Sequence record: OP114734.1
DNA from: Escherichia phage vB_ESM-pEJ01
DNA length: 64,000 nucleotides
Strand: one strand, 5' to 3'
The notes below the pieces were generated by a model. The model did not search any database and was not told the origin of the DNA. It was given only the letters and a program-made list of their open reading frames with translations. The position numbers and the translations under genes are program-made. Of this stretch, positions 7,162 to 63,593 are shown in pieces. Every line of letters starts with the position of its first letter. The stretch's first letter is position 1.

Positions 7162-7171
7162 TTTCTACTCC

Positions 7172-7610: not shown

Positions 7611-7617
7611 CAGATTT

Positions 7618-7917: not shown

Positions 7918-7952
7918 TATTAAATCCTCATAAAAGAAAAGGGAGACTCCCA

Positions 7953-8539: not shown

Positions 8540-8540
8540 A

Positions 8541-50344: not shown

Positions 50345-50588
50345 TTACATTATCTCCATAGATCTTTCCAGCAATATCAATTTCACCAGCGCGAACATCT
50401 AGGATAAGATGCGGTAGGTGTATGCAGTTTTCCCACCCCACTCGCTTCATTTCTGAAACAGTGACGTAAGCCCATCCGTTCGCTGTAATAAAGTCTACTT
50501 CAACCTTGAGAGGAAAGCAAGACTTTTCTATGTCTTCAAATCCGATAATGTGTTTTGTCGTTGAATATGGAATATATCCGGTGATCAT
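50334..50588 (-). CDS. hypothetical protein (84 aa)
   Basis: ORF. Confidence 0.4.
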   Translation of the reverse strand: MITGYIPYSTTKHIIGFEDIEKSCFPLKVEVDFITANGWAYVTVSEMKRVGWENCIHLPHLILDVRAGEIDIAGKIYGDNVNED

Positions 50589-51046: not shown

Positions 51047-51266
51047 TTCTTTTATATGGTACTATAACAGGATTAATACAGCAAGCACCAATTACGTTAT
51101 GAGCACCACAATTTAAACATTTATAGTCATGGAACTTATTAAGGAATCGACCAAACTCATAGCCGACTAACGCCGCATGTACTTGAGTCTCGATCTCATC
51201 CATATCAGCCAATGTTTTAACCTTCATAATATAATCCTCAAATTGTAGTTTTGCGAAGATGGTCAT
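51030..51266 (-). CDS. hypothetical Cys-containing protein (78 aa)
   Basis: ORF with CLNCGAHNVIGACC. Confidence 0.4.
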   Translation of the reverse strand: MTIFAKLQFEDYIMKVKTLADMDEIETQVHAALVGYEFGRFLNKFHDYKCLNCGAHNVIGACCINPVIVPYKRNETEE

Positions 51267-51528
51267 TACATGCTTTTAATGCATCGGTCGCGGTGTCATA
51301 GCGAGTATTATCATAGCACCAATAACCATCTGTCAACTGATAAATTAATCCATCCTTTTTAGCTTCGATGAAAGACAATTCTTTGAAAGTTTCTACTTTC
51401 TTTGCTGATACTCCACGGTCACGGCGCTTATAGAGTTTAGCCAAAATGCGTTCAGCTTGTTCCTCTTTATCGCCAGACAGATCCCAGATGATGTTTCTGA
51501 TATGCTTGATTAATTGTTCAGTGGTCAT
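51238..51528 (-). CDS. hypothetical protein (96 aa)
   Basis: ORF downstream of promoter 51558..51585. Confidence 0.4.
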   Translation of the reverse strand: MTTEQLIKHIRNIIWDLSGDKEEQAERILAKLYKRRDRGVSAKKVETFKELSFIEAKKDGLIYQLTDGYWCYDNTRYDTATDALKACNDHLRKTTI

Positions 51529-51557
51529 ATTTGATTATCCTTAGTTGGTATGCGTGC

Positions 51558-51585
51558 ATTATAGCATTGTGATTATCTTTGTCAA
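51558..51585 (-). promoter_or_regulatory. early-type promoter (-35 TTGACA, 16 nt, -10 TATAAT)
   Basis: Follows terminator 51590..51624. Confidence 0.5.
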
Positions 51586-51589
51586 CACC

Positions 51590-51624
51590 CAAAAACAAAA
51601 AAGGCTACCCCGAAGGATAGCCCA
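51590..51624 (-). terminator. rho-independent terminator after glycine-rich gene
   Basis: GGGCTATCC-ttcg-GGGTAGCC hairpin followed by TTTTTTGTTTTT. Confidence 0.6.
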
Positions 51625-51629
51625 TAAAA

Positions 51630-52406
51630 TTACACGCGAGCACCGTAGATCGTGCCTACTTTATCCCAGCGTGGAGCATTACCAGTAACAGCCTTACCAG
51701 CAGCACCGCCGTTATATTCTGTACCGTTACCTTGAGTATTACATCTTCCTCCAGCAGCACCGACATTACCACCCGAACCGCCTGTATATGCACTAAGAGA
51801 CCCCTCACCAACAGATCCTTTACCAGGAGCGGAAATAGTACCAGCAGTTGCACCGGAACTCATATGAGAGGAAGACCCACCAGCACCGAATGGGCGACCA
51901 CCGCCGCCGCCAAATACTAGTCGACCCCTGTTACCGCCGCCACCGCCGCCACCGCCGCCAGCGATAGCACCGTTATTTGTAATTCGTAGACGTGTACCGA
52001 TAGCGTTATTGATTGCGTTTCCACCAGCAGCGCCAGCAGCGTTACTACCACCATTACCCCCACGTCCGTAGACAGTCACATCGGAGTTGATGATCAGTGT
52101 TACATACTCGTTTGTTAACGAGCTAGGGAAGTCAAGACAAGGAACGCCAGTAGATTGGGAAACAATATTACCTGTGATAGTAATTACTACAGGAGTAGAT
52201 CCTTGTGCTTTCATCCAGTTAATAAGAGTGTCTTTATTGTAAGAGTTACTAGCACCAATGCTATAATGAATCTCTTTAGAGCGTCCGACCATTGCCGACA
52301 TATACGCCGGACGACCTAAGCGTACAGCTTGCATTGCGGCGCTCATCCACCGTTGACCAGTCTCGGACACAGCAGATGATCCTACCCATCCAGAAGATAT
52401 TGCCAT
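51630..52406 (-). CDS. glycine-rich protein (258 aa), function unknown
   Basis: C-terminal 150 aa ~45% Gly with G9 and G5 runs; N-terminal ~110 aa ordinary. Confidence 0.5.
   Translation of the reverse strand: MAISSGWVGSSAVSETGQRWMSAAMQAVRLGRPAYMSAMVGRSKEIHYSIGASNSYNKDTLINWMKAQGSTPVVITITGNIVSQSTGVPCLDFPSSLTNEYVTLIINSDVTVYGRGGNGGSNAAGAAGGNAINNAIGTRLRITNNGAIAGGGGGGGGGNRGRLVFGGGGGRPFGAGGSSSHMSSGATAGTISAPGKGSVGEGSLSAYTGGSGGNVGAAGGRCNTQGNGTEYNGGAAGKAVTGNAPRWDKVGTIYGARV
51890..51962 (-). repeat. (GGC/GGT)n trinucleotide tract encoding poly-Gly
   Basis: Plus strand ccgccgccaccgccgccaccgccgcca and neighbouring ccgccgccgcc. Confidence 0.7.
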
Positions 52407-52460
52407 AAAATTTCCTCACAAGAAAAGCCCCATTTAAGGGGCATTGATTGATAATATTAC

Positions 52461-52682
52461 TTAGATGATCTCTGCTTCACCATTCAGGAAGAAAGACCAT
52501 GTTTTGTTAGGATAGCGAAGCGCCCATGATTCAGCGGTTTTAACACCAGCTTCGAACAATTGACGGCTGGTTACTTTCGCCATACCATCTTCAATGTCAA
52601 CGTTTTCAATAATCATCGGGTACTTAGCGCCACGCATGAAACCGAAGCCAGCGGAAGATTTGATAATTTTAACAGTTGCCAT
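52461..52682 (-). CDS. hypothetical protein (73 aa)
   Basis: Start set at MATVKII (ATG 52682) downstream of promoter 52723..52751. Confidence 0.4.
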   Translation of the reverse strand: MATVKIIKSSAGFGFMRGAKYPMIIENVDIEDGMAKVTSRQLFEAGVKTAESWALRYPNKTWSFFLNGEAEII

Positions 52683-52722
52683 TTTGATTCTCCTAGAAAG
52701 TGTATCTCGTTTCGATGGGTAT

Positions 52723-52751
52723 ATTATGCAATAACACCGGATCGCTGTCAA
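52723..52751 (-). promoter_or_regulatory. early-type promoter (-35 TTGACA, 17 nt, -10 CATAAT)
   Basis: Minus strand TTGACA 52751..52746. Confidence 0.5.
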
Positions 52752-52771
52752 CACTTTCTAAGAAAAAATTT

Positions 52772-53056
52772 TTAAACTAATCGAATATAGCCCAGAATTT
52801 CAGCACCTTTAGCCAAACCTAAAACTTCCCATTCAAGGTCGCCGTATTCGTAATTTGCAACCATCAACTGACCATTTTTCATGCAGCATTCATGAGAGAA
52901 AATTTGCCCCGCATAAACCACGATAGTAATAAACTTTCCTGATTCTGGAGGTATGGAAGACAAAGCGACCATATGACCATTCAGCTTAGTCACCAGTGAT
53001 GGAACAATAAAATTCGGGCTTACCTGAATACCTTTAAATTCGTTTGTGTCTTTCAT
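52772..53056 (-). CDS. hypothetical protein (94 aa)
   Basis: ORF. Confidence 0.4.
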   Translation of the reverse strand: MKDTNEFKGIQVSPNFIVPSLVTKLNGHMVALSSIPPESGKFITIVVYAGQIFSHECCMKNGQLMVANYEYGDLEWEVLGLAKGAEILGYIRLV

Positions 53057-53403
53057 GCCAGACCTCGCAAAACACTAATAGCATAATCATGCTGGTTATT
53101 CATAATATCAATTGCATTGTGATAACGAGCTAAACCATCAAGGATAAATTCTTGTTTATCCTGTTTCAGTTTGGTATCACGCGCAGCCATAAGAGCATCA
53201 AGAACAGGTCCAAAGTGATTATCTAATTCATCTTCGGTTGCAATGTTTCCTATTGCCTCGTCGATCCGTGATTCTAATGCTTGCTTTTCGTTGATCACTT
53301 GCTGGGTATATTCCAACACATCAAGAATATCGCGGGTAACGTCGCCATGATAAGGTATTCCCGCATGAAGATGATCAATTAATCGCTGAATATCAATGTT
53401 CAT
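53053..53403 (-). CDS. hypothetical protein (116 aa)
   Basis: ORF. Confidence 0.4.
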   Translation of the reverse strand: MNIDIQRLIDHLHAGIPYHGDVTRDILDVLEYTQQVINEKQALESRIDEAIGNIATEDELDNHFGPVLDALMAARDTKLKQDKQEFILDGLARYHNAIDIMNNQHDYAISVLRGLA

Positions 53404-53738
53404 TTGTAACCCTCCTCTGAAAGCACATCCCAGATCGTTGAGTCAAGGTGCATTAAATTCCACATAATAGAGTCATAACTACCGAAGCCAGAAGTAAAAA
53501 TTACATCACACTGGCGATAGGTCTTATGAAAATCGGTGGCTGTCTCTGCATCAATCGGCATATCGTCACCTGAAAGCACCAGACATTTAAGAATCATAAC
53601 TCTGTTAGCCGTTGGCGCTTGCTTAGTCTTTTCAGCATATTTTTCGATGATCTGTTTTGCCTTTTCTTCTTTGATACGTCCAGACCAAATCCGGTTTCGG
53701 TATTGATTCATAATAATTTCAATCACATCATTTTGCAT
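53400..53738 (-). CDS. hypothetical protein (112 aa)
   Basis: ORF. Confidence 0.4.
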   Translation of the reverse strand: MQNDVIEIIMNQYRNRIWSGRIKEEKAKQIIEKYAEKTKQAPTANRVMILKCLVLSGDDMPIDAETATDFHKTYRQCDVIFTSGFGSYDSIMWNLMHLDSTIWDVLSEEGYK

Positions 53739-53937
53739 TCTTCACGGTCTCCATAATTGTTTTGTAAGCCAGCTTAAGATGATCACCGAAAAACTTTGCA
53801 GTGTTACCCTTCGGATCGCGGAGCATGGTTTCTACGATCTCATCGGCAGTAACAATTTCTCCTTTCTTTGCTGCATGTTCTACCATATACTTCAAAGTTT
53901 CTTCGGAGGCAAGTGCTGCGGCCACTGGATTAATCAT
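53728..53937 (-). CDS. hypothetical protein (69 aa)
   Basis: AAGGAG RBS; first gene after promoter 53967..53995. Confidence 0.4.
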   Translation of the reverse strand: MINPVAAALASEETLKYMVEHAAKKGEIVTADEIVETMLRDPKGNTAKFFGDHLKLAYKTIMETVKNAK

Positions 53938-53966
53938 TTTGATTCTCCTTTGTTGTCGATGTGTGC

Positions 53967-53995
53967 ATTATGCTATACCCTATTCCGGTTGTCAA
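53967..53995 (-). promoter_or_regulatory. early-type promoter (-35 TTGACA, 17 nt, -10 CATAAT)
   Basis: Conserved leader CACACATCGACAACAAAGGAG follows. Confidence 0.5.
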
Positions 53996-54000
53996 CACCT

Positions 54001-54031
54001 AAAAACGAAAAAGCCACCCTTTCGGATGGCT
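54001..54031 (-). terminator. rho-independent terminator
   Basis: GCCATCC-gaaa-GGGTGGC hairpin followed by TTTTTCGTTTTT. Confidence 0.6.
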
Positions 54032-54264
54032 TTTGATTATATTTTATTCACGTCCATTTGTATAGTAGTGTTTGAATCGACCTTTGCTAAACTAGTTAAA
54101 CATAGTAACCAATTCACCATCCCTTTCCAATGATAACCCTTCCTCGTCTTAGACGGGTCTTCCGATTCGGCAGTAATTGAACACGCGAAAGTATGAGGAA
54201 GCCAAATAGTTGTGTTAATGCTAGTATTCTTTTACTTCTGGTATGCATCCCACGGTGACTAACA

Positions 54265-54663
54265 TTAAGACAGTCGAGTGAGTTTATAAATTGTTTTAAA
54301 ACATAGAGCTTTGATATCGTCTAAAACGCTCTGTAACGAGCTATCAACATCATTATAAATCTCACTAGCCATTTGCGTTAACTCTTGCAAATAGGCAATT
54401 TCGCTAATCTCCTTGCGGACGACCAACGTTGGCTGATAACGACCAGTGATCCCAATATTGGTTTCAGTGAAATCATCAACCAATTCTTGCATTTCAAGAT
54501 AGAACTCTTCTAGAGCCTTATGTTTTGCATAAGATCCAGGACCAGTTACCCCAAAATGCGCAGAATGCATATAAGTAACACTCATCAGACATTCACCGAT
54601 AAAGCGGTCAACTTTATTATCTTTTCCCTCTTCGGACGTCTTTCGAAAATCACTGAATTTCAT
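54265..54663 (-). CDS. hypothetical protein, possibly ferritin/Dps-like four-helix bundle
   Basis: Start at MKFSDF (GGAG RBS); segment HSAHFGVTGPGSYAKHKALEEFYLEMQELVDDF loosely resembles Dps HW..G..F...H..LEE motif. Confidence 0.3.
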   Translation of the reverse strand: MKFSDFRKTSEEGKDNKVDRFIGECLMSVTYMHSAHFGVTGPGSYAKHKALEEFYLEMQELVDDFTETNIGITGRYQPTLVVRKEISEIAYLQELTQMASEIYNDVDSSLQSVLDDIKALCFKTIYKLTRLS

Positions 54664-54952
54664 GTTCTCGATTCTCCATATTATGCAACATAACAAACTG
54701 TTGTGCGGCATATTCCCCCATAATAAAACACTGCTTAGAATCCATACATTTACTACGAGCATACATCTTCATAATATGGGCATGAAATTTCTGGCTGGTT
54801 TCAATGGAAGGAGATATTTTGTTTACATATACTATCATTGCACCGTCGAAATAATCAGTAAAGTCACCAGTTGGATCATATTGATCAGCACTGACACTTC
54901 CGACCGCAGTCAAGCATATTGCCGCTGTTAGAGTTTTACGAATAAATGACAT
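54650..54952 (-). CDS. secreted/periplasmic hypothetical protein
   Basis: N-terminal signal peptide MSFIRKTLTAAICLTAVGSVSA. Confidence 0.45.
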   Translation of the reverse strand: MSFIRKTLTAAICLTAVGSVSADQYDPTGDFTDYFDGAMIVYVNKISPSIETSQKFHAHIMKMYARSKCMDSKQCFIMGEYAAQQFVMLHNMENREHEIQ

Positions 54953-55020
54953 AAGTCATTCCCCCAGATTAAAAATATTCAGTTATATTTATAATCTGGG
55001 GCTTTATTTATGATTAACTC

Positions 55021-55617
55021 TTATTTGGTAGTACCGTCAATAAAATGTTTACGGCACACAGAGACATATTTATCCTCTGCACCAACTTCTATTTGAGCAC
55101 CATCGCGAATAACATTACCCTCTTTATCTACACGAAGGACCATTGTTGCTTTCTTGCCACAATGACAAATACCCTTCATTTCGACCAGTTTATCAGCAAA
55201 TGCCATTAATGCCGCAGATCCTTCAAATAGATTGCCCTGAAAGTCGGTGCGAAGGCCATAGCACAGTACAGGGATATTTGCATCATCGACAAGCGCACAC
55301 AAGCCTAAAACATGCTCTTTAGTCATAAATTGGGCTTCATCTACAAATACAGCATCAGGACGCCATCGATCCGGTCTACGCTTACCTAACGATTCACGAT
55401 AAACCAAATCGAAAAGATCATCCGATTCAGTGAAGGTGATCGCTGGAGCACTTAGGCCAATTCGGGAAACAACTTCACTTTCTGAATCTCGATTATCAAT
55501 CGCTGGCTTAAGAATTAATACTCGCATATCACGTTCGGTATAGTTATAAGCACTTTGTAACAGAGAAGTTGATTTGCCAGCGTTCATAGATGCATAGTAG
55601 AAATATAGTTGCGCCAT
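55021..55617 (-). CDS. tk: thymidine kinase
   Basis: Walker A ASMNAGKST, DEAQF, C-terminal zinc ribbon CHCG...CRKH. Confidence 0.85.
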   Translation of the reverse strand: MAQLYFYYASMNAGKSTSLLQSAYNYTERDMRVLILKPAIDNRDSESEVVSRIGLSAPAITFTESDDLFDLVYRESLGKRRPDRWRPDAVFVDEAQFMTKEHVLGLCALVDDANIPVLCYGLRTDFQGNLFEGSAALMAFADKLVEMKGICHCGKKATMVLRVDKEGNVIRDGAQIEVGAEDKYVSVCRKHFIDGTTK

Positions 55618-55910
55618 TAATTAATCTCCAAAAATCCAGCAAGACCTAAACCGATATAAGTCCAGATACAAAGGAAAAAGAAGCAAACACCCATAGCAAA
55701 GATAAATCCGCGTAGTGTCTTTGGATAACCTACCCAATATTCCCGACCATCTTCTAACCGGATCAGCTTATTTCCTTGAGAGTCCATATCAATTACAACA
55801 TGTTTATTTCTGGATTGTAACAGATATTGCTTGACAATCTCAATACCCGCCACAATAACAATAACGAAATTGAAAGTCCACATAACAAGATTAATGATAG
55901 TCTCAAGCAT
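55617..55910 (-). CDS. hypothetical membrane protein
   Basis: Two TM helices. Confidence 0.4.
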   Translation of the reverse strand: MLETIINLVMWTFNFVIVIVAGIEIVKQYLLQSRNKHVVIDMDSQGNKLIRLEDGREYWVGYPKTLRGFIFAMGVCFFFLCIWTYIGLGLAGFLEIN

Positions 55911-56145
55911 TTTCTATCACCTCCACCCAATCAGGTGTTTCCTGAAAGACTCCTTCGCCTTCATGATGGTCGCAACCTTTATTGCTACAATACATCCACC
56001 AATCCCACATTCCCCACGGTAAACGCTGCATATCGTCGTTACAGCAAGTGAAGATGATAGGCCAACCACATCTAACACATCGGCAGTTTTCTTTCATGTG
56101 AGCGGTATTAGGCTTCTTCATAGATGACTCCAATATAATCGACAT
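55903..56145 (-). CDS. hypothetical Cys-rich (zinc-binding) protein
   Basis: CRCVRCG...CC...C..GC. Confidence 0.4.
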   Translation of the reverse strand: MSIILESSMKKPNTAHMKENCRCVRCGWPIIFTCCNDDMQRLPWGMWDWWMYCSNKGCDHHEGEGVFQETPDWVEVIENA

Positions 56146-56348
56146 TTACATTTAGGGCAATGCGGTTCTTTAATATAATACCCGTCTGTCTTTGGAACAC
56201 TAACAGGAGCGGTTTTTATATTGTATTCGGTGAAACAACGAAAACAAGTTACGTTTTCTACAGACTGACGTTTCACCCAATAACCGGAATAGAGGTCATT
56301 TTTATTTGTCATATTCCACCACCACAATGTTAATGTCTGGAGTAGCAA
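56118..56348 (-). CDS. hypothetical zinc-ribbon protein
   Basis: CFRC ... CPKCKC; start probably MTNKND. Confidence 0.4.
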   Translation of the reverse strand: MLLQTLTLWWWNMTNKNDLYSGYWVKRQSVENVTCFRCFTEYNIKTAPVSVPKTDGYYIKEPHCPKCKCRLYWSHL

Positions 56349-56757
56349 TATTAATGATTTCTTCTACACATTCCAACTCAAGGCCACCGATACCGCAACC
56401 GATTTTAGGGATATAGAAAGGCTGTATAGCACCTTCAAAAACATCATTGAGAGTCTCAAATCCTTTCAGGATAGCACCATATTCAGCATTTGGACCCGGT
56501 CGGAATTGGGTATAGAGATTCACCCCGCACCAGTTATAACCATTAACTTGATGCGTCCAGACACTAAACCCACCCAACTTTTCTACCTTACCGCGAGAAG
56601 TTTGCTTGTCAATCTCTAACGCTTGCGGGAACTCTTTCGCGATATCCGCAGCAATACCAGCGCCCATAGTATGAAAACAATTACAACCATGAATTAAATG
56701 ACCGTTTCCTTGTTTAAACAGGGCGATGAGATCGCCCTTTACAGTATCAATAATCAT
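56302..56757 (-). CDS. macro-domain protein (ADP-ribose binding/hydrolase fold)
   Basis: HGCNCFHTMGAGIAADIA and IPKIGCGIGGL match the two glycine-rich ADP-ribose-binding loops of macro domains; 151 aa. Confidence 0.65.
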   Translation of the reverse strand: MIIDTVKGDLIALFKQGNGHLIHGCNCFHTMGAGIAADIAKEFPQALEIDKQTSRGKVEKLGGFSVWTHQVNGYNWCGVNLYTQFRPGPNAEYGAILKGFETLNDVFEGAIQPFYIPKIGCGIGGLELECVEEIINIATPDINIVVVEYDK

Positions 56758-56772
56758 AATATAAACCTCTCA

Positions 56773-57132
56773 TTAGTCACGGGAAGACAACCCAGCCATA
56801 AAACGGCTTAACAGTGTGTCGCGATAAGCAAAGCATAATTGCTTATCAGGGGCAGTATCACACAGGTTACGTTTTGTTTTAGCAAAGCTGGCAATACTCA
56901 GATCCCACGCTCGATTTTTTCGTTTTTCGTCTCGACCTTGTTTGTATGCTTCATCAAGTTCGAGCGCGATAAAATCACTACACATGTTATCATCATCACA
57001 GAAAGTTTTAATGATCTTTTTGTTGATCTCAAATCCTTTGTATTCGAACTTTGGATAAGGGCGCTCATTACTAGCAAGCGAACCAGCAGAGAACATCATA
57101 ACAATCATAGCAATTATTGTCAACTTTTTCAT
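56773..57132 (-). CDS. secreted/periplasmic hypothetical protein
   Basis: Signal peptide MKKLTIIAMIVMMFSAGSLA; 4 Cys. Confidence 0.45.
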   Translation of the reverse strand: MKKLTIIAMIVMMFSAGSLASNERPYPKFEYKGFEINKKIIKTFCDDDNMCSDFIALELDEAYKQGRDEKRKNRAWDLSIASFAKTKRNLCDTAPDKQLCFAYRDTLLSRFMAGLSSRD

Positions 57133-57139
57133 ATATTCC

Positions 57140-57730
57140 TCAATAGCGTTTAGTCTTAAGAATGCCTTTACTCTTTAGATGGTTAGCCTTTTTTAGTACG
57201 TCATCAGCATAACCTAATCCGGCTTTATAGTTCCATCCAGCATTGTAAGAAGCTAGCGCGAGTCGGATATTACCGTTTCGAACATCCAGCCAGTATGCTA
57301 ACTCATCCATCGCGTAGAATGCAGAAACCTCGCGATTCATGATAAAGTTGATAGTCTGGCGATCACTCATTTTAACACCGAGCTTTGCATTTTTCGCTTT
57401 CACCGTTTTAAGGTAATTTTGAAACAATCCATAAGCATGATGATTTTTCTTTGGTGCTAAGTTTGCACCCGCGCTTGATTCTTGCCATGCGATACCCGCC
57501 AGGATGTGGCCTAAACCCTTTCCGTTATAGCGAATATTCGGATGGTCCTTTTTCAACTTACCGCTTTTCTCGAATTGCTCGCCGTATTGATAGGCGAAAT
57601 GTAAATTATCTAGTTGGTGTGCTGTAAAGTTGTCTATCGGCGCTTTTTTGATCGGTGCGCTAGTCGATGCGTGTGTAGCACCAACGGCTAGTGACAGACT
57701 CAATACTATCGCTTTTAGAACTTTTAACAT
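57140..57730 (-). CDS. lytic transglycosylase (SLT domain) with N-terminal signal/SAR-like segment
   Basis: SLT motifs AWQESS, YGLFQ, SYNAGWNY; N-terminus MLKVLKAIVLSLSLAVGATHA rich in small residues. Confidence 0.6.
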   Translation of the reverse strand: MLKVLKAIVLSLSLAVGATHASTSAPIKKAPIDNFTAHQLDNLHFAYQYGEQFEKSGKLKKDHPNIRYNGKGLGHILAGIAWQESSAGANLAPKKNHHAYGLFQNYLKTVKAKNAKLGVKMSDRQTINFIMNREVSAFYAMDELAYWLDVRNGNIRLALASYNAGWNYKAGLGYADDVLKKANHLKSKGILKTKRY

Positions 57731-57815
57731 TAATTTCTCCTGTTTGGCTTAACTTTCTGATTCCATAATATAGCCCTATCACCAGAAAGTCAAGCATTAA
57801 TTTAACCAATTTCCA

Positions 57816-58238
57816 TTATTGGTCTACCTTCAAAACAACCGCCGACATTTTACCCGCCAGTCGTTTTGGATTCTCTATAATCATTCGGCAGCATAGACCG
57901 TGATATGGCTTACCCTCTTCGATTAGATCTACTGTCATCCCGATCCACATGTTACCATCAGTAATTTCTAATCGATTAGGTCGGTCTTCCATTTTCAGGA
58001 AGTCGAAGATCTCCGGCAAACGAGTTTCTATCTTATTGAATAGTTCCATTGTCTTATGTTCATCGATATGACGATCGGTTAGACGGTCGATCATATGCGG
58101 ACTAAAGCGAATGAAAATATACTCACCGTAACCATCATTCAAGCACTTTTCTTTGATCTGCGCATTGGTTTTGCGCATTTCGGTTTCGAAGAATCTACGC
58201 AGCTTACTACGGCGAACATGTACGTTAATTGTTTCCAT
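57816..58238 (-). CDS. regB: RegB-like sequence-specific endoribonuclease
   Basis: RLEITDGNMWIGMTV and LCCRMII..RLAGK parallel T4 RegB; start at METINV. Confidence 0.7.
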   Translation of the reverse strand: METINVHVRRSKLRRFFETEMRKTNAQIKEKCLNDGYGEYIFIRFSPHMIDRLTDRHIDEHKTMELFNKIETRLPEIFDFLKMEDRPNRLEITDGNMWIGMTVDLIEEGKPYHGLCCRMIIENPKRLAGKMSAVVLKVDQ

Positions 58239-58242
58239 TTTA

Positions 58243-58578
58243 TTATCCTTTCTTAAACAAATTGCGAAGCCAGTATACAAACGGGATTTCTTTAAACTTG
58301 AATTTCTCTATAGTTAATTCTTTAGTAGCAAGATGAATACCATAAGCATCATGTGTCACGATATGCCATTTTCTATAGTCCAAATGTGAACAACCGTCTG
58401 GATCTAGGTTAATAAGAGTTTCTCGCTCACTAGGATTATTTTTCCACAATTTTGTAATAGGATCGCACATAATTCGACCTAGCGTACCATGAATAATCTC
58501 ACAACGGTAAAGTTTTCCAGCAGTGAGATAGGCGCACCCGTCATAGTCGGTATAAACAAACACTTCTTTAACACTCAT
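58243..58578 (-). CDS. paralogous small protein (DGC.HL family, two repeats)
   Basis: YDGCAYL and DGCSHLDYRKW; start at MSVKEV after promoter 58607..58635. Confidence 0.45.
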   Translation of the reverse strand: MSVKEVFVYTDYDGCAYLTAGKLYRCEIIHGTLGRIMCDPITKLWKNNPSERETLINLDPDGCSHLDYRKWHIVTHDAYGIHLATKELTIEKFKFKEIPFVYWLRNLFKKG

Positions 58579-58606
58579 TTTAATACTCCTTTGTTTCGAT
58601 GGGGGT

Positions 58607-58635
58607 ATATTACTACCCCCGTTTTGTTGTGTCAA
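58607..58635 (-). promoter_or_regulatory. promoter cassette with GGGGGTA/TACCCCC hairpin over -10
   Basis: TTGACA 58635..58630, 17 nt, TAATAT 58612..58607. Confidence 0.55.
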
Positions 58636-58896
58636 CTACTTTTTCAAGATTTTTTTAATTGCGTTCCAAAGACCTTTATTCTCAGGTTGTTTTGGTTCTT
58701 CGATTAGTGTCCATGTTCGACCGTCTAAGTGTGCACAATTTTTAAGACAAATAAAAATCTGGTGTCCCTTATCATCACGGATATAACCACTATTCGCAAA
58801 TCTTTCATGTGGTGTATATTCATACAGTGTATTTGGTGTAATATACTTGCGGTTACTATAAGGTGTCATCACATACATCATGGTACTAACTCCCAT
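58636..58896 (-). CDS. paralogous small protein (DGC.HL family)
   Basis: YEYTP..GYIRDDKGHQIFICLKNCAHLDGRTW. Confidence 0.45.
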   Translation of the reverse strand: MGVSTMMYVMTPYSNRKYITPNTLYEYTPHERFANSGYIRDDKGHQIFICLKNCAHLDGRTWTLIEEPKQPENKGLWNAIKKILKK

Positions 58897-59072
58897 TTAT
58901 CACCGCGAAGATGAGAACATCCACCATCAAGAAGTATCGTAATACGATAACCTATATCATCTTTGATGTAACCGATTGTCGGTGGATTTTCGTCGTCTCG
59001 TGTCGGGGTAAAATCATACATCTTTCCGGGCGTAATATCTTGTCCTTTATTGCTATTGGTATAAACTTTCAT
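58878..59072 (-). CDS. paralogous small protein (DGC.HL family)
   Basis: YDFTP..GYIKDDIGYRITILLDGGCSHLRGDKW. Confidence 0.45.
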   Translation of the reverse strand: MKVYTNSNKGQDITPGKMYDFTPTRDDENPPTIGYIKDDIGYRITILLDGGCSHLRGDKWELVP

Positions 59073-59093
59073 TTTCTTAATCTCCTATATTAA

Positions 59094-59792
59094 CTAACCA
59101 CGGGTATAGTGTTCCAGAACAACTGTCAGATGAATATATTCTAATAGATCTTTCCAAAAGTCAACATCTGGTTCTTCCGGCATACCGTTTTTCTTTGCCT
59201 CTTCACGCGCGAGTTTAACACGTTCGTAGAGATCTTTCAATTCTTCCCGCACATTATCAAAGGTTCTTTCTCCTAACTTACACGCTAAAATAGAAGAACG
59301 TCGCGCGAGCGGGAATTGTAGATCACCTGTCTGATAGATTTCAAGTAGCTGATAACCAACACGCAGAGCATGAGAAAGATCTTTCCAGTTACTGAAATAC
59401 TTTTCAGATTTGGCTACCTGTTTCTTGAGATAACCAGACAAACCCCACATCCCAACATGATAGAATTTATCGCGATGTGTTCGGATGTATTCCCATTCTC
59501 TGGAGGATTCAATCAACATGTTACTAGGCGCGTGCACCATGTCAATAGCGCCGATATCACCTTTACATGCCAGATTGATAAACCGTTTTAGACTAAACAT
59601 ATTAACGTCAATATCGTCTTTGGTGTTCTTGATACCTTGACCGCTAGTGCTTTGGTCATAGTGTTCTTTCATCGATCCTAAGATAATTTCTTTCGCAGTC
59701 GGAACAAAGATACCACGATAATCTTTATCTGAATTTTCAGTATCAAGGCCGTATAAGTGAGATCCGAAGACCATTTTAACCATTGTATGCAT
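59094..59792 (-). CDS. Pol-beta superfamily nucleotidyltransferase (function unknown)
   Basis: N-terminal FGSHLYGLDTENSDKDYRGIF fits hG[GS]...DhD NTase motif; helical C-terminal domain. Confidence 0.5.
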   Translation of the reverse strand: MHTMVKMVFGSHLYGLDTENSDKDYRGIFVPTAKEIILGSMKEHYDQSTSGQGIKNTKDDIDVNMFSLKRFINLACKGDIGAIDMVHAPSNMLIESSREWEYIRTHRDKFYHVGMWGLSGYLKKQVAKSEKYFSNWKDLSHALRVGYQLLEIYQTGDLQFPLARRSSILACKLGERTFDNVREELKDLYERVKLAREEAKKNGMPEEPDVDFWKDLLEYIHLTVVLEHYTRG

Positions 59793-59810
59793 AATTAAAC
59801 CCTCAGTTGA

Positions 59811-60404
59811 TTAAACGTATTCAGCAACAACATTATGTTTAAAATTACCGCTCCTTTTTGGATTTGGATTTTTCAATCGACTATGTATTAAATTTTTGTT
59901 GTATCCGGTTGCTTTAGACGCTTCGCCAATACTTTGATAAACAACACCATTAACACGAATCGGACGAGACTTATTAAACAGTTTATTCAATCCGGCATCA
60001 TATGCATGGTTTTGGTTTTCTTGCCTCGTTGCGATCTCAAGATTCCAAACACAATTACAAGATTTTACCCCACTTTTATGATTAATTTCAAGACCTTCAC
60101 AATCACCTATAAAGTGTTCAGCAACTAGTCTATGAATATAGCGATATTTCTTACTTTCCCCATCATGCAAGCATACATTATAATAACCATCACCAGCGCG
60201 TTTAGGTCGGAGTAGTTTACCTTTAACACGTTTTATAGTAGGGAACTCACCAAATTGATTTCTCTGGATAAACGGAATCTCGCGGTCTAATGAACGGATT
60301 CGACCATAGTTAGACACTTGATAAAAACTTTCATATCCTTTAATTGGCTTCCATATCTCAGGGATTTCTACACCATCAATAACAACAAGTTTAAATTCTT
60401 CCAT
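59811..60404 (-). CDS. HNH homing endonuclease (NUMOD4-like N-terminus + HNH_3)
   Basis: YQVSNYGRIRSL; HRLVAEHFIGDCEGLEINHKSGVKSCNCVWNLEIATRQENQNH. Confidence 0.8.
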   Translation of the reverse strand: MEEFKLVVIDGVEIPEIWKPIKGYESFYQVSNYGRIRSLDREIPFIQRNQFGEFPTIKRVKGKLLRPKRAGDGYYNVCLHDGESKKYRYIHRLVAEHFIGDCEGLEINHKSGVKSCNCVWNLEIATRQENQNHAYDAGLNKLFNKSRPIRVNGVVYQSIGEASKATGYNKNLIHSRLKNPNPKRSGNFKHNVVAEYV

Positions 60405-60413
60405 ATTTCACCT

Positions 60414-60446
60414 CATAAAAATAAAGCCAACCCTTTCGGATTGGCT
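60414..60446 (-). terminator. rho-independent terminator after GrcA-like gene
   Basis: AGCCAATCC-gaaa-GGGTTGGCT hairpin followed by TTTATTTTTAT. Confidence 0.6.
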
Positions 60447-60452
60447 TGTTGA

Positions 60453-60866
60453 TTACATAGATTCCGTAAAGGTACGGGTGATAATATCAAGTTGTTGTTC
60501 GCGTGTCAAGGCGTTGAAGCGGGTAGCATAACCACTGATTCGAATTGTAAGCTGCGGGTACTTCTCAGGATGTTCAACCGCATCAAGAAGAGTCTCCCGA
60601 CGCAGTACATTCGCGTTGAGATGATGACCCGCGTTACTATTTACCCCGTTATCAATTGCTAAAGGACGGAAGCTAGTTGTGTGCAGTTCCAGCGAATCGA
60701 CGTCTTCTGCGGTGATCACATGATCTTCTGCGAAAGTTTTACTAACAATTACTTTAGCGCCGATCAGTGCTTTCGGTTCGGATACCAGAATCATAGGCGC
60801 GAAATGTCCACCGATAATAGTACCTTTATGCTCACCTTTCATGATTTGAATTGCTTTAAATTCCAT
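60453..60866 (-). CDS. autonomous glycyl radical cofactor (GrcA/YfiD-like, PFL C-terminal domain)
   Basis: C-terminus [44 protein letters not shown] is nearly the GrcA/PflB glycyl-radical signature (RVSGYAVRFNSLT..). Confidence 0.75.
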
Positions 60867-60876
60867 AATTCACCTC

Positions 60877-61002
60877 TTATAGATCAGGACGTTCGTCATT
60901 AATTTTACCAACCAAAACCCCATAGAGTTTATCAGGTTGGACTTTACGATTCTTATTGATTGTAGCACGGAATCGACGAGCCACGCTATCTTTATTTTTC
61001 AT
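60877..61002 (-). CDS. possible basic 41-aa protein, translationally coupled (TAATG)
   Basis: MKNKDSVARRFRATINKNRKVQ...; start overlaps upstream stop; stop sits next to GrcA RBS. Confidence 0.3.
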   Translation of the reverse strand: MKNKDSVARRFRATINKNRKVQPDKLYGVLVGKINDERPDL

Positions 61003-61493
61003 TAGTTGATACCTAAGCCAATGAAAATAGGTTGGTCTTCTACATTACCCATCCCAACACTAAGTCGATTCAATTCTAAAAACTGCAATACGCTGTCAGT
61101 AAATCCGCGCATGGTAGTATCTAGGATAAAAATTGTTTTGTCAAGACTACGACCTCGCCATGTGATCGGATTCAGGAAAGTTCGGATAGACGTACAATCT
61201 ACATTTGAAATATTTACATTTTCACCGCGACCGCGATCTCGGATCGTTTTGGCATGTTCTCGCGTCGTTGAAACGATAAAGACACTATAGCCCTTTCGCG
61301 TATAATGGTCATATAACTTGATTGTAGCGTCTGTATGCCCTGTCTGACGGCCTAAATTGATTGAGACAATGGAATCTAGGTCATCAGCAAAATTGCGTCG
61401 CTTACGGCGTTCTATGATGCCATTTACGGCAGAAATACACGCAGCATAAATCAAATCTTTACTTTCTAATTCTAAATCAATGTCAATATTCAT
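61002..61493 (-). CDS. hypothetical protein (163 aa)
   Basis: ORF. Confidence 0.4.
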   Translation of the reverse strand: MNIDIDLELESKDLIYAACISAVNGIIERRKRRNFADDLDSIVSINLGRQTGHTDATIKLYDHYTRKGYSVFIVSTTREHAKTIRDRGRGENVNISNVDCTSIRTFLNPITWRGRSLDKTIFILDTTMRGFTDSVLQFLELNRLSVGMGNVEDQPIFIGLGIN

Positions 61494-61555
61494 GGTAAAG
61501 TCTCCAGTGAACGGGGAGAGATCCTTAGATTGTCTCCCCGTTGATGGTTAATATT

Positions 61556-62130
61556 TTATTTTGGATCTGGGAAATTCAATAGAGCATATTCTCCATAAAA
61601 TTTCCTAGCTGCATTATCATAAGCGATTGCAGCTTCGATTTCTGTGTCATATTGTCCAAGAACATGTCTTTGTAGGTTGACCATTATACTAGCTCTCCAT
61701 TTCTTACGCAAATCCTTCCTGTTACACTTACTAACACCCTTATACACACTAGAAAACTTTTAGACTTCTTCTTTCTATTATGTTGATTTTGCGCGTCGGT
61801 TGCCTCCATAAGATTTGGAGGATTGTTATTAGCAGGATTACCGTCAATATGATCAATTAATCTAACTTGCGTCCCATGTTCTAGAAACCAAACAACCCTA
61901 TGCACGAATAGATGAACTCTAGGAAGACCGTCATCTCTACTATGCCAAAATCTAAGATGACCATCTTTATTTGTTCTGACTTTAACTAAATCGCCGTGTT
62001 TATATCTACTCCCTAATGGTCGTCCTTTGATAGCTTTACTATCGACTCTATAATATAAGATACCCTCTATATGAGCATATCTAAGTTTTATCTCGTTTTG
62101 TAGGGATTCATCCCAATATTTAAAAGCCAT
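61556..62130 (-). pseudogene. HNH-AP2 homing endonuclease gene disrupted by frameshift
   Basis: HNH part (61684..62130, VHRVVWFLEHGTQVRLIDHIDGNPANNNPPNL) and AP2 part (61556..61747, YKGVSK..AAIAYDNAARKFYGEYA) lie in different frames and overlap by 64 nt; intact paralogue at 7976..8539. Confidence 0.6.
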
Positions 62131-62175
62131 TTTATAATCCTCACAAAGCCAGCGATTAAGCTGGCTTTATTTTAG

Positions 62176-62565
62176 TTATACCGGGTCTGGATATACCTTT
62201 TTATCGAGTTCCATATGCGGTCCGTCTTTAAAAGTAACCCAATCAACACCGCAGATAACAGGAACACCCAATTCTCGACCAGCTTGTTTAAATGCATCAG
62301 CGATCATGCGGTAATATTTCATGTTCCATGTATCCTTATCTTTCGGATACGCTACAACGTCAACCGCGAAACCGTGAAGATGACGAGATTTCATAGTCTT
62401 AGATTTACCTTCCGCAACATATTTCTTTTGCGTTTCTAGACTACGCACACCTTCCGTAATACCAAAATCGACCGGAGTCAGTTCTAATGCACGATGAACG
62501 ACTTTTACCAGGTCTGGATGTACACCAACAAGCCGATCTTTGCTTCTTTGAGATAATTTAAACAT
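62176..62565 (-). CDS. endolysin, L-alanyl-D-glutamate peptidase (peptidase M15-like)
   Basis: Zn-binding H/D/H arrangement SRHLHGFAVDV ... DGPHMEL typical of M15/VanY-type phage endolysins. Confidence 0.7.
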   Translation of the reverse strand: MFKLSQRSKDRLVGVHPDLVKVVHRALELTPVDFGITEGVRSLETQKKYVAEGKSKTMKSRHLHGFAVDVVAYPKDKDTWNMKYYRMIADAFKQAGRELGVPVICGVDWVTFKDGPHMELDKKVYPDPV

Positions 62566-62593
62566 TATTCACCCCCTTTGTGAGTGATAATAT

Positions 62594-62785
62594 TTAGATT
62601 CCTGTGATCCTGCATAGAGTTCTTGTATTAGCACCAATCAGGATCGCATTAACAGCAACCATTCCCCAATCAACCCACGGATCATTATAAATGCTAAATC
62701 CGTTTGCAAGACCAAATACAAGCATTCCGGTACACATACTCAGAGCAATAATCAACATCACGGTAAAACCAAATGCAAATCTCAT
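62594..62785 (-). CDS. small membrane protein (63 aa)
   Basis: Two hydrophobic helices. Confidence 0.4.
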   Translation of the reverse strand: MRFAFGFTVMLIIALSMCTGMLVFGLANGFSIYNDPWVDWGMVAVNAILIGANTRTLCRITGI

Positions 62786-62786
62786 A

Positions 62787-63053
62787 TTATTTTCCTTTTC
62801 TCTGTTTACGTTTATAAAAGTAATACATTACCTCATCTCGTCCGGTGACCCAACATGCTAGGGCGGTAAACAGGTTTACAATTCCCAACACACCTACGGA
62901 TGCGGCGCTATCAACAGACATAGGAACAGTAAAGGCCATAGCTAACATAGCAACGCCACAAATGACATTAAGCACCATTATAATAAGACCGAAGAAAACC
63001 ATTGTCAATCCTCCCAAATAAGAAAACCAACAATCACGCCAGTGATAAGACAT
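62787..63053 (-). CDS. small membrane protein
   Basis: Hydrophobic helices; C-terminal KRKQRKGK. Confidence 0.4.
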   Translation of the reverse strand: MSYHWRDCWFSYLGGLTMVFFGLIIMVLNVICGVAMLAMAFTVPMSVDSAASVGVLGIVNLFTALACWVTGRDEVMYYFYKRKQRKGK

Positions 63054-63196
63054 GATGCGCCGCTAATAAGACAACCCGCGCCAAGTGATTCCCACCAGAT
63101 CAGAGAAGCGACAATAACACAGAATCCCCATACTACCGCAATCACAACATAGGCAAGGGTCGCCCAAAACATATATTTGTTCATAATAAATCCCAT
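63005..63196 (-). CDS. small membrane protein (63 aa)
   Basis: Two TM helices; resembles neighbour 63181..63369. Confidence 0.4.
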   Translation of the reverse strand: MGFIMNKYMFWATLAYVVIAVVWGFCVIVASLIWWESLGAGCLISGASCLITGVIVGFLIWED

Positions 63197-63369
63197 TCAC
63201 CAAACAAATAAGAAAAAAGCCATATCAACAGAAACGAGGCAATTGATCCGGCAAGCAAAATGATATTAGAGAATCCGCCGTCTATCCAGGCGACAAAACA
63301 GAATACGCCAGTATAGAAGCATAAACCCAGTACAAAGCATACTATAAGCAACCATAGACAAAACGCCAT
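63181..63369 (-). CDS. small membrane protein (62 aa)
   Basis: Two TM helices. Confidence 0.4.
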   Translation of the reverse strand: MAFCLWLLIVCFVLGLCFYTGVFCFVAWIDGGFSNIILLAGSIASFLLIWLFSYLFGEWDLL

Positions 63370-63593
63370 AGAAAGCCCTCCAGTGAGCTAATTTAGTGCG
63401 GGTAGTACATTACCCTACCCGTATTGTTAATCATCGCAGAGCTTCTTCTAGCGCGATCCAAAACCATCCACAAACAACGCCCATACAGACAGCTACAAGA
63501 AGATTCATTCTCTCTTTAGGGATCATTGCAATCATAACAACAACCATACAGAAAGCCACATTACCATTGAAGTTAACATTTGTTCAACCATTA

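What the first reader, a model, noticed from the sequence alone, without database searches (positions are those of the whole stretch)
62594..63547. Cluster of tiny two-helix membrane proteins beside the endolysin
Four tracked ORFs of 62–88 aa, plus a further ~39-aa hydrophobic ORF near 63428..63547, all consist mainly of transmembrane helices. The last two tracked ORFs look like paralogues. Their position next to the M15 endolysin suggests holin/antiholin/spanin-type lysis regulators or superinfection-immunity proteins.
Basis: inference. Interest (0 to 1): 0.5.

Follow-up and report, generated by a model that had tools for sequence, protein, structure and literature searches.

The report
Tiny early membrane proteins beside endolysin
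Five tiny two-helix membrane-protein genes really do sit just upstream of the endolysin of this RB49-like (Krischvirus) T4-type phage, but they are long-annotated genus-specific genes of unknown function in an early-transcribed variable region, and the phage's real holin, antiholin and spanins are encoded elsewhere.

Summary
The window is a Krischvirus (RB49-like, T4-type) genome. The ORFs are real minus-strand genes, orthologues of RB49 ORF103c-107c:
- A: 62594-62785, 63 aa.
- B: 62787-63002, 71 aa rather than 88.
- C: 63005-63184, 59 aa.
- D: 63181-63369, 62 aa.
- E: a 52-aa gene, broken in this window by a 2-nt insertion.

All five are two-helix hairpins. Their order is kept in every relative examined, and dN/dS is mostly 0.1-0.5. 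Their transmembrane predictions were published in 2006.

The proposed C/D paralogy has no statistical support. None of the five matches a holin, antiholin, spanin or Imm family. A and B, the two searched beyond the family libraries, have homologues only in Krischvirus-like phages.

The lysis roles are already filled:
- Antiholin RI lies in this window at 54650-54952.
- A T4-type holin T lies next to the tail-fibre genes.
- PseT.3/PseT.2-type spanins have been reported for RB49.

Published predictions place the cluster in an early transcription unit. A conserved hairpin masks the endolysin ribosome-binding site in read-through RNA, as in T4 gene e.

Best reading: these are accessory early inner-membrane microproteins of the variable region syntenic with T4 e.1-e.8. 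They may exclude superinfecting phage or act on the host envelope, but this is untested. The finding is ordinary and of low interest.

The parts
62594..62785 (-). Gene A (RB49 ORF103c orthologue), 63 aa. It has a strong TM1 at about residues 3-27, a conserved aromatic/acidic loop NGFSIYN(D/N)PWVDW, and a weaker second helix. Its stop lies 28 nt upstream of the endolysin ATG.
   Evidence: ORF and hydropathy. PHROG 15016 at E 2e-43. Published TM prediction 5-27 and 37-54. dN/dS 0.14-0.41. Homologues only in Krischvirus-like contigs at >=86% identity. AF2 helices 2-30 and 36-61 at pLDDT 66.
62787..63002 (-). Gene B (RB49 ORF104c orthologue), 71 aa. It is a two-TM hairpin with an invariant basic C-terminal tail, RDEVMYYFYKRKQRKGK. 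The 88-aa reading back to 63053 is an unlikely start. It has a GGAG-containing Shine-Dalgarno.
   Evidence: ORF and hydropathy. PHROG 15232 at E 1.6e-51. AF2 helices 2-25 and 30-69 at pLDDT 78. dN/dS 0.14-0.41. Word-index search finds only relatives at >=79% identity. Exhaustive profile search of 1.84 billion representatives finds only its own family.
63005..63184 (-). Gene C (RB49 ORF105c orthologue), 59 aa (63 aa if started at 63196). It is a two-TM hairpin with the loop WWESLG and the acidic end WED. Its ATG overlaps D's stop codon (ATGA).
   Evidence: ORF and hydropathy. PHROG 16151 at E 1.8e-41. Alignment A1. dN/dS 0.16-0.33.
63181..63369 (-). Gene D (RB49 ORF106c orthologue), 62 aa. It is a two-TM hairpin and the most hydrophobic of the five (GRAVY 1.79), with a GGAG-containing Shine-Dalgarno. 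It is left unannotated in some GenBank records.
   Evidence: ORF and hydropathy. PHROG 19354 at E 1.6e-40. Found in 57 phage records, and shortened or split in ECD7, Whisky, Cognac and PHB13. dN/dS 0.02-0.38, with one pair at 1.0 on few changes.
63399..63421 (-). Stem-loop in the 61-nt E-D spacer, CGGGTAG-loop-CTACCCG. The stem is essentially invariant in six genomes and the 9-11-nt loop is hypervariable. It resembles the G/C stems of RB49/phi1 PeSL elements but has no adjacent sigma-70 promoter.
   Evidence: Alignment A7. PeSL description in PMC2839356. Its function was not tested.
63431..63591 (-). Gene E (RB49 ORF107c orthologue). It is 52 aa in relatives. In this window a 2-nt insertion after codon 11 (around 63557-63558) disrupts it, leaving a 42-aa GTG-started or 38-aa ATG-started hydrophobic remnant.
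   Evidence: Alignment A3. PHROG 16035 matched only from profile position 11 onward. Intact in all 58 phage records.
62176..62565 (-). M15 L-alanyl-D-glutamate peptidase endolysin (EndoRB49 orthologue). It is context only, and it occupies the position syntenic with T4 gene e.
   Evidence: PF13539 and PHROG 465 'endolysin'. Synteny from the RB49 and T4 annotations. Literature.
62566..62598 (-). Invariant leader of the endolysin gene. A hairpin pairs the Shine-Dalgarno and AUG with an upstream arm, and that arm overlaps the late-promoter-like octamer TCTAAATA (62591-62598).
   Evidence: Folds. Read-through RNA folds at -13.1 kcal/mol (z -2.95). An RNA starting 6 nt after the octamer folds at -3.8 kcal/mol (z 0.03). 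Invariance in 8 genomes. The octamer.
54650..54952 (-). T4-type antiholin RI, the genuine lysis-inhibition membrane protein of this phage. It lies 8 kb from the cluster, and the window's only perfect TATAAATA is at 54986-54993.
   Evidence: PF24205 at E 1.6e-23. Late promoter. rI annotation in RB49 and W115.

Best explanation
**What it is (shown).** The region is a tightly packed array of five non-homologous, genus-restricted genes, RB49 ORF103c-107c. Each encodes a 52-71-residue helix-loop-helix protein. By the positive-inside rule each would sit in the inner membrane with both ends in the cytoplasm and a short acidic or aromatic loop in the periplasm.

The array is the endolysin-proximal end of a variable, 'hyperplastic' early region. 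That region is syntenic with T4 nudE/e.2-e.8...57B, and in RB49 14 of its 22 ORFs are small membrane proteins, nearly all two-helix hairpins.

**How it most likely works (inferred).**
1. The genes are transcribed by host sigma-70 RNA polymerase early in infection, from a promoter about 2 kb upstream. In RB49 this is Pe:57746.
2. The transcript runs on through the endolysin gene to a terminator after vs.6.
3. The endolysin is kept silent on this read-through RNA by a hairpin over its ribosome-binding site.
4. The hairpin microproteins insert into the inner membrane within minutes of infection and act by binding other membrane components.
5. The most probable job is an accessory envelope function such as exclusion of superinfecting or competing phages. 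This is the role that Imm and Sp play in T4. No imm or sp gene is annotated in the RB49 regions inspected.

They are not the holin, antiholin or spanin of this phage.
For: **Real, conserved genes.** PHROG matches; synteny in 13 genomes; dN/dS mostly 0.1-0.5.

**Two-helix hairpins.** Hydropathy, published TMHMM predictions and AF2 models.

**Restricted to the genus.** Searches for B and A. No homologue of any of the five lies beside related M15 endolysins in 79 other viral loci.

**Lysis roles already filled.** Holin T, RI, spanins.

**Early-unit prediction.**
- RB49 early promoter Pe:57746 and the next strong terminator at 53587-53607. A simple scan reproduces both.
- The 17 predicted RB49 late promoters skip the region, going from 48756 straight to 64518.
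- Only one TATAAATA occurs in the 64-kb window, against about 6 expected.
- Nolan et al. state that novel ORFs appear to be co-expressed with early genes.
- B and D have GGAG in their Shine-Dalgarno sequences, the RegB target typical of T4 early mRNAs (read directly).
- The hairpin over the endolysin ribosome-binding site implies read-through transcription from the cluster.

**Dispensability.** E is frameshifted here. D is broken in 4 isolates.

**No imm or sp annotated.** RB49 coordinates 1-62 kb.

**Literature.** Genes of the hyperplastic regions are regarded as ancillary and adaptive (PMC4122927).
Against: - There is no direct expression, localisation or phenotype data for any member.
- Promoter and terminator assignments are predictions. 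A weak predicted terminator (57282-57296) lies between the promoter and the cluster.
- The exclusion function is pure analogy. There is no homology to Imm.
- B has every generic sequence hallmark of a class II holin and lies two genes from the endolysin.
- The frameshifts could be sequencing errors. The same window also has a 1-nt homopolymer deletion in the neighbouring homing-endonuclease gene.
Confidence: 0.42

Rival explanations
1. The cluster provides auxiliary lysis proteins. B, possibly with A, would be a class II-type holin or pinholin, or a holin modulator, that works with the adjacent M15 endolysin. It could be a relic of, or a back-up from, a lysis cassette acquired together with the endolysin. 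C, D and E would tune its timing.
For: - The cluster lies directly upstream of the endolysin.
- B is 71 aa with two TM helices, an inferred N-in/C-in topology, and an invariant, strongly basic C-terminal tail. This is the generic holin design.
- In related M15-endolysin loci of other phages, an ORF of about 110 aa lies immediately upstream of the endolysin.
- RB49 replaced T4-type lysozyme e with an M15 peptidase at the same locus, so a foreign cassette was acquired at some time.
Against: - There is no significant match to any holin family. The Pfam holin hits score 9.9-12.4 bits against cut-offs of 27-28, and PHROGs, NCBIfam and the exhaustive search add nothing.
- Holin T, RI and spanins are all present.
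- The endolysin has no signal-anchor, so a pinholin alone could not release it (read directly).
- The transcription unit is predicted to be early, and early synthesis of a holin would be harmful.
- The hairpin over the endolysin ribosome-binding site uncouples endolysin translation from the upstream genes.
- No homologue of A-E was found next to 79 related M15 endolysins.
Confidence: 0.12
2. The proteins are host-takeover or counter-defence microproteins. Each hairpin would bind and inhibit a particular host inner-membrane protein: a transporter, a protease, a sensor kinase, or a membrane-acting abortive-infection effector. The aim would be to keep the infected cell productive rather than to exclude other phages.
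For: - The same early, accessory, genus-restricted and membrane-embedded features apply.
- The small membrane proteins of the region show no detectable homology to one another. No pair among the 13 most hydrophobic exceeds shuffle z = 3, which fits many different targets.
- Gene content varies between relatives further upstream in the same region.
Against: No target is known. There is no homology to any described anti-defence protein, and the PADLOC library was not searched. With these data the idea cannot be distinguished from the exclusion hypothesis.
Confidence: 0.25
3. The ORFs are evolutionary filler of the variable region, with little or no present function, carried along between the endolysin and essential genes.
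For: - All five families are ORFans.
- Frame disruptions occur in individual isolates.
- D is missed by several annotators.
Against: - All five ORFs are kept, in the same order, in the 13 genomes examined. D and E were each found across the phage records (57 and 58 records) and in contigs about 12% diverged.
- dN/dS is mostly well below 1.
- Residue blocks are invariant, for example B residues 44-63.
- Gene spacing suggests translational coupling.
Confidence: 0.08

Closest known systems
RB49 ORF103c-107c (RB49p103-p107; Phi1 p103-p107; PHROGs 15016, 15232, 16151, 19354, 16035)
   Same: They are orthologues. Order, spacing and length are the same, and protein identity is 85-100%. Two TM helices were already predicted for them in 2006.
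   Different: In this window E carries a 2-nt insertion. The window's sequences are otherwise ordinary alleles.
T4 Imm (superinfection immunity protein, two TM helices, early)
   Same: It is a small, early, two-helix inner-membrane protein of a T4-type phage with an accessory role. This comparison rests on established knowledge of T4.
   Different: No sequence similarity was detected. No Imm family appeared among the Pfam hits even at E<=1. The genomic position is different, and no exclusion phenotype is known for Krischvirus.
Class II holins and pinholins (phage 21 S21 68, T7 gp17.5)
   Same: B has the same size class, a two-helix N-in/C-in design, a basic C-terminal tail, and proximity to an endolysin gene.
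   Different: There is no homology. The predicted expression is early. The endolysin is soluble with no signal-anchor. The genome already has holin T. A dual-start motif is not evident.
T4 lysis set: holin T, antiholin RI, spanins PseT.3/PseT.2
   Same: They act in the same phage lineage and in the same membrane compartment.
   Different: T and RI are encoded at other places in Krischvirus genomes, and the spanins are reported for RB49, JSE and Phi1. All have large periplasmic domains or lipoboxes that A-E lack.
T4 variable-region ORFs upstream of gene e (e.2, e.3, e.4, trna.4)
   Same: They occupy the syntenic position between the endolysin gene and 57B-57A-1-3. Several have hydrophobic segments, and trna.4 is 61 aa with GRAVY 1.22. 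Their function is also unknown.
   Different: No sequence similarity was found; the best phmmer E-value is 0.09. The T4 ORFs are mostly larger and fewer of them are hairpins.

Membership tests
RB49 ORF103c-107c families (PHROGs 15016/15232/16151/19354/16035) | Full-length profile match and conserved position upstream of the Krischvirus M15 endolysin | tested here: met
   E-values 1e-27 to 1e-51 over the full length. Order E-D-C-B-A-endolysin in RB49, W115, TB34, Whisky and L086-L092.
Holins (generic functional class; class II / pinholin type) | Small protein with TM helices and a highly charged, basic cytoplasmic C-terminus | tested here: met
   Met by B only (two helices, tail KRKQRKGK). A, C, D and E lack a basic tail.
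Holins (generic functional class; class II / pinholin type) | Sequence membership in a described holin family | tested here: not met
   Pfam holin hits are far below cut-off (12.4 and 9.9 bits against 27-28). PHROGs assigns 'unknown function'. NCBIfam finds nothing. The exhaustive HMMER search finds only B's own family.
Holins (generic functional class; class II / pinholin type) | Late expression, co-ordinated with the endolysin | tested here: inconclusive
   Only predictions are available. They show an early promoter upstream, no late promoter predicted in the region, and an endolysin ribosome-binding site masked in read-through RNA. No transcript data were found.
Holins (generic functional class; class II / pinholin type) | Forms lethal membrane lesions that release endolysin; complements a holin-null phage | not testable with these tools
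   Needs expression and complementation experiments.
T4 holin T (PF11031) | Profile match: single TM helix plus a large periplasmic domain, about 218 aa | tested here: not met
   No match for A-E. The genuine T is a 218-aa protein after the tail-fibre genes in W115 (E 1.7e-61).
T4 antiholin RI (PF24205) | Profile match: N-terminal signal-anchor plus a periplasmic domain of about 70 aa | tested here: not met
   No match for A-E, and their loops are only 4-13 residues. The genuine RI lies in this window at 54650-54952 (E 1.6e-23).
Spanins (i-spanin, o-spanin, u-spanin) | Lipobox cysteine (o- and u-spanin), or an N-terminal TM helix followed by a long periplasmic coiled-coil (i-spanin) | tested here: not met
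   Direct reading of the five sequences finds no [LVI][ASTVI][GAS]C lipobox and no periplasmic domain. RB49, JSE and Phi1 are listed in the T4 PseT.3/PseT.2 spanin families.
T4 Imm superinfection-immunity family | Sequence membership | tested here: not met
   No Imm family among the Pfam hits at E<=1 for A-E, nor at E<=0.1 for nine other small membrane proteins of the RB49 region.
T4 Imm superinfection-immunity family | Blocks DNA entry of superinfecting phage | not testable with these tools
   Needs plating and DNA-injection assays on cells expressing each ORF.
Paralogous pair (C and D) | Sequence similarity beyond what composition explains | tested here: not met
   BLASTP finds nothing at E<=100. 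hhalign gives probability 0.4%. Global and local shuffle z-scores are 0.94 and 0.05. The only shared features are the W-x-(D/E)-x-G loop and the acidic W/E/D ends, by eye.

The most novel reading that the evidence does not exclude
The five genes would be the endolysin-proximal end of a 5-kb 'membrane-microprotein island'. In RB49, 14 of the 22 ORFs between the endolysin and 57B are small membrane proteins, nearly all two-helix hairpins, with no detectable homology to one another, and all are predicted early. The island would act as a diversified arsenal. Each member would block a different inner-membrane entry route or membrane-acting defence effector, standing in for the imm and sp genes that are not annotated in RB49. 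A sharper variant is that B is a second, class II-type holin retained from the cassette that brought in the M15 endolysin.
Probability: 0.2. Interest if true: 0.55.

Novelty: already known. Interest (0 to 1): 0.22.

Why it matters
Nothing here changes what is known. The ORFs have been in GenBank since the RB49 genome was deposited, and their TM helices were tabulated in 2006.

If the arsenal idea were shown, it would give functions to a class of ORFans that fills the variable regions of T4-type phages, including phages used for therapy. It would also offer compact membrane-protein inhibitors.

The practical value of this check is negative. Proximity to an endolysin is not evidence of a holin in T4-type phages, because their lysis genes are dispersed.

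Tried and rejected
1. **T4 holin T or RI in the window.** I searched with sequences recalled from memory by tblastn. It found nothing, so I replaced it with annotation plus Pfam tests.
2. **Co-acquisition of the cluster with the endolysin.** I fetched 80 viral loci with related M15 endolysins and ran phmmer with A-E against all their ORFs. Only the Krischvirus locus matched. The best foreign E-values were 0.2-0.5, against hydrophobic ORFs.
3. **Paralogy.** Tested for C against D, and among 13 of the small membrane proteins of the RB49 region. Rejected.
4. **An 11/12 sigma-70 match (TTGACA-17-TATTAT) at 63008-62980, inside the C/B junction.** The hexamers are not kept in diverged relatives, where they read TTGAAA and TATTGT. 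It is absent from the published promoter list. I treat it as coincidence.
5. **Remote homologues.** I looked for homologues of B in 1.84 billion representatives and of A in the 5.8-billion-protein index. None lie outside the genus.
6. **Homology to the syntenic T4 ORFs e.2-e.8 and trna.2-4.** None found.
7. **Literature.** Searches for Krischvirus transcriptomes and for RB49 superinfection exclusion turned up nothing relevant.
8. **Base composition.** It gives no sign of recent foreign origin: GC is 0.39-0.43 against 0.36-0.45 nearby.
9. **Not done.** Fold searches were skipped because a 60-70-residue helical hairpin gives meaningless matches. PADLOC was not searched.
Full report
**Identity of the window.**
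The last 1.9 kb of the window matches 57 phage records at 95-99% identity, and one more at 90-95%. Every record whose taxonomy I inspected is Krischvirus, the RB49, Phi1 and JSE group of T4-type phages. All genes here are on the minus strand, so the small ORFs lie upstream of the endolysin in the direction of transcription.

**Checking the observation.**
The ORF listing shows these ORFs:
- 62594-62785, 63 aa.
- 62787-63053, 88 aa.
- 63005-63196, 63 aa.
- 63181-63369, 62 aa.
- 63431-63559, 42 aa from a GTG start, or 38 aa from the first ATG at 63547.

Their GRAVY values are 0.9-1.8, and each has one or two 19-residue Kyte-Doolittle peaks of at least 1.6. A scan of all minus-strand ORFs in the window finds no other run of consecutive hydrophobic small ORFs.

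They correspond to RB49p103-p107, which I call A-E.
- For B, the annotated start gives 71 aa. It follows a GGGAGGA Shine-Dalgarno, while the 88-aa start has none and overlaps C by 49 nt.
- For C, the annotated start gives 59 aa, and its ATG overlaps D's stop as ATGA.
- Spacing is operon-like: E, 61 nt, D, a 4-nt overlap, C, 2 nt, B, 1 nt, A, 28 nt, endolysin.

**Are they genes?**
- Each matches one PHROG of unknown function over its full length.
- The order is preserved in W115, TB34, Whisky, RB49, an IMG/VR contig, and seven metagenomic contigs whose DNA is only 87-90% identical.
- Between these lineages dN/dS is 0.14-0.41 for A and B, 0.16-0.33 for C, mostly 0.02-0.38 for D, and 0.08-0.54 for E. 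The endolysin gives 0.05-0.28.
- AlphaFold2 predicts helix 2-25, a loop, and helix 30-69 for B (pLDDT 78). For A it predicts helices 2-30 and 36-61 (pLDDT 66).
- Nolan et al. 2006 had already tabulated two TM helices for RB49 ORF103c, 104c, 106c and 107c. They did the same for nine further small ORFs up to ORF124c.

My own hydropathy survey of RB49 finds 14 small hydrophobic proteins among the 22 ORFs between the endolysin and 57B.

So the core observation is right, and it is old.

**What is wrong or needs correction.**
- The suggested paralogy of the last two ORFs, C and D, is not supported. BLASTP finds nothing, profile-profile probability is 0.4%, and shuffle z-scores are below 1.
- Among 13 of the small membrane proteins of the RB49 region, no pair exceeds z = 3.0.
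- C and D do share a design: a loop of the form W-x-(D/E)-x-G and an acidic W/E/D end.
- The fifth ORF is a broken gene. The window has a 2-nt insertion after codon 11 of the 52-aa ORF107c homologue. The insertion is absent from six aligned relatives, and the ORF is intact in all 58 phage records.
- D is frameshifted or shortened in ECD7, Whisky, Cognac and PHB13, but intact elsewhere.

**Is it lysis machinery?**
The neighbouring gene is indeed the M15 L-alanyl-D-glutamate peptidase, whose RB49 orthologue (EndoRB49) has been purified and studied. The other lysis roles, however, are already occupied.
- W115 has a 218-aa protein directly after the tail-fibre genes that matches Phage_holin_T at E 1.7e-61.
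- The window itself encodes the T4-type antiholin RI at 54650-54952 (PF24205, E 1.6e-23).
- Kongari et al. list RB49, JSE and Phi1 in the T4 PseT.3/PseT.2 spanin families, and stress that lysis genes are not clustered in T4-like genomes.

A-E match no holin, antiholin, spanin or Imm model in Pfam, PHROGs or NCBIfam. By direct reading they have no lipobox and no periplasmic domain.

B is the most holin-like, with two helices and an invariant tail ending KRKQRKGK. Even so, its only homologues are at 79% identity or more in Krischvirus-like contigs, and an exhaustive profile search of 1.84 billion representatives returns only its own family. A behaves the same way.

None of 79 other viral loci with related M15 endolysins has a homologue of A-E nearby. 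There is therefore no sign that the cluster arrived together with the endolysin.

**Genomic and regulatory context.**
Comparing the RB49 and T4 annotations shows that the RB49 endolysin sits exactly where T4 gene e sits:
- RB49: vs.6, vs.8, endolysin, variable region, 57B, 57A, 1, 3.
- T4: vs.6, vs.7, vs.8, denV, ipII, ipIII, e, nudE, e.2-e.8, tRNAs, 57B, 57A, 1, 3.

The cluster is thus part of the hyperplastic region syntenic with T4 e.1-e.8. T4 also has hydrophobic ORFs there (e.2-e.4 and trna.4), but they are not homologous to A-E. Such regions are described as stores of non-essential, adaptive ORFans, shuffled through promoter/stem-loop cassettes first described in RB49 and Phi1.

For RB49, Nolan et al. 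predict the following:
- An early promoter at 57746 and a weak terminator at 57282-57296.
- The next strong terminator at 53587-53607, after vs.6.
- No late promoter between 48756 and 64518.

A simple scan reproduces the TTGACA-17-CATAAT promoter and the terminator. TATAAATA occurs once in the whole window, directly upstream of rI, against about 6 expected. Nolan et al. conclude that novel ORFs are co-expressed with early genes. No transcriptome for the genus was found.

**A related point: the endolysin leader.**
The 40-nt A-endolysin spacer is invariant in eight genomes. It folds so that the Shine-Dalgarno and AUG of the endolysin pair with an upstream arm.

That arm contains TCTAAATA, which is one mismatch from the T4 late-promoter octamer.
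- A read-through leader folds at -13.1 kcal/mol (z -2.95).
- An RNA starting 6 nt after the octamer folds at only -3.8 kcal/mol, no better than shuffles.

This is the logic established for T4 gene e, here on a non-homologous enzyme in a phage listed as having no gene e. It implies that early transcripts from the membrane-protein genes run into the endolysin gene without expressing it. That fits an early, non-lytic role for the cluster.

**Conclusion.**
- **Shown.** The cluster is five real, conserved, genus-restricted genes for two-helix membrane microproteins. They are known as RB49 ORF103c-107c.
- **Shown.** They are not paralogous by any test used, and they belong to no described lysis or immunity family. 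The phage's holin and antiholin genes lie elsewhere, and T4-type spanins have been reported for the genus.
- **Inferred.** They are expressed early as part of a long sigma-70 unit and insert in the inner membrane with both ends in the cytoplasm. Their function is accessory, most plausibly exclusion of other phages or interference with host membrane proteins. T4 does this with Imm and Sp, and no imm or sp gene is annotated in the RB49 regions inspected.
- **Remaining minority possibility.** A holin-type role for B, at about 0.1.

The finding is ordinary and already documented, so interest is low.

Noticed in passing
window 62566-62598 (minus strand): The M15 endolysin's Shine-Dalgarno and AUG are sequestered in a hairpin. 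The hairpin's 5' arm overlaps a late-promoter-like octamer, TCTAAATA. The 40-nt spacer is invariant in 8 genomes. Read-through RNA folds at -13.1 kcal/mol (z -2.95), against -3.8 for an RNA starting after the octamer. This appears to be convergent with the translational gating of T4 gene e, in a phage that has no gene e. No late promoter has been predicted for this endolysin in the literature.
   Followed up: partly
window 54986-54993 (minus strand) and the whole window: There is only one perfect TATAAATA in 64 kb, where about 6 are expected. One-mismatch variants number 82 against 128 expected. The single perfect copy lies just upstream of the RI antiholin gene (54650-54952). This suggests selection against stray late promoters in the early region.
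   Followed up: partly
window 63557-63558 (gene E) and 61555-62130 (homing-endonuclease gene): There are two frame-breaking indels within 2 kb of this genome. One is a 2-nt insertion in the ORF107c homologue. The other is a 1-nt deletion in an A5 run, which splits the HNH-AP2 homing endonuclease (191 aa in TB34) into 148-aa and 63-aa ORFs. They could be real pseudogenes or assembly errors.
   Followed up: partly
window 62176-62250 (endolysin 3' end) and 61555-62130: The last 25 or so residues of the endolysin exist in at least two allelic forms among Krischviruses: VICGVDWVTFKDGPHMELDKKVYPDPV, as here, and VEWGGDWTSFKDGPHLQLPHSKYPDPK, as in W115 (RB49's published mutagenesis primers also encode VEWGGDWTSFKDGP). 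The variable stretch abuts an optional HNH-AP2 homing-endonuclease insertion. Contigs without the endonuclease gene can still carry the first allele, which may reflect co-conversion of flanking sequence.
   Followed up: no
window 63399-63421 (minus strand), E-D spacer: A stem-loop, CGGGTAG-loop-CTACCCG, has an essentially invariant stem and a hypervariable loop across six genomes. It resembles the stems of RB49/phi1 PeSL recombination cassettes, but no promoter lies next to it. It may be a transcription attenuator or a recombination site.
   Followed up: partly
L093 (RB49 50000-62000), locus 5138-10170: In RB49, 14 of the 22 ORFs between the endolysin and 57B are small hydrophobic proteins, nearly all predicted two-helix hairpins, with no detectable similarity to one another. 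That is more than half of all the novel TM ORFs tabulated for RB49 in 2006. The window ends inside this island.
   Followed up: partly
RB49 and T4 annotations (L093, L095); window 60453-62565: The M15 peptidase endolysin of Krischvirus occupies exactly the locus of T4 lysozyme gene e, between vs.8 and the variable region leading to 57B-57A-1-3. This is a non-orthologous replacement in place.
   Followed up: partly
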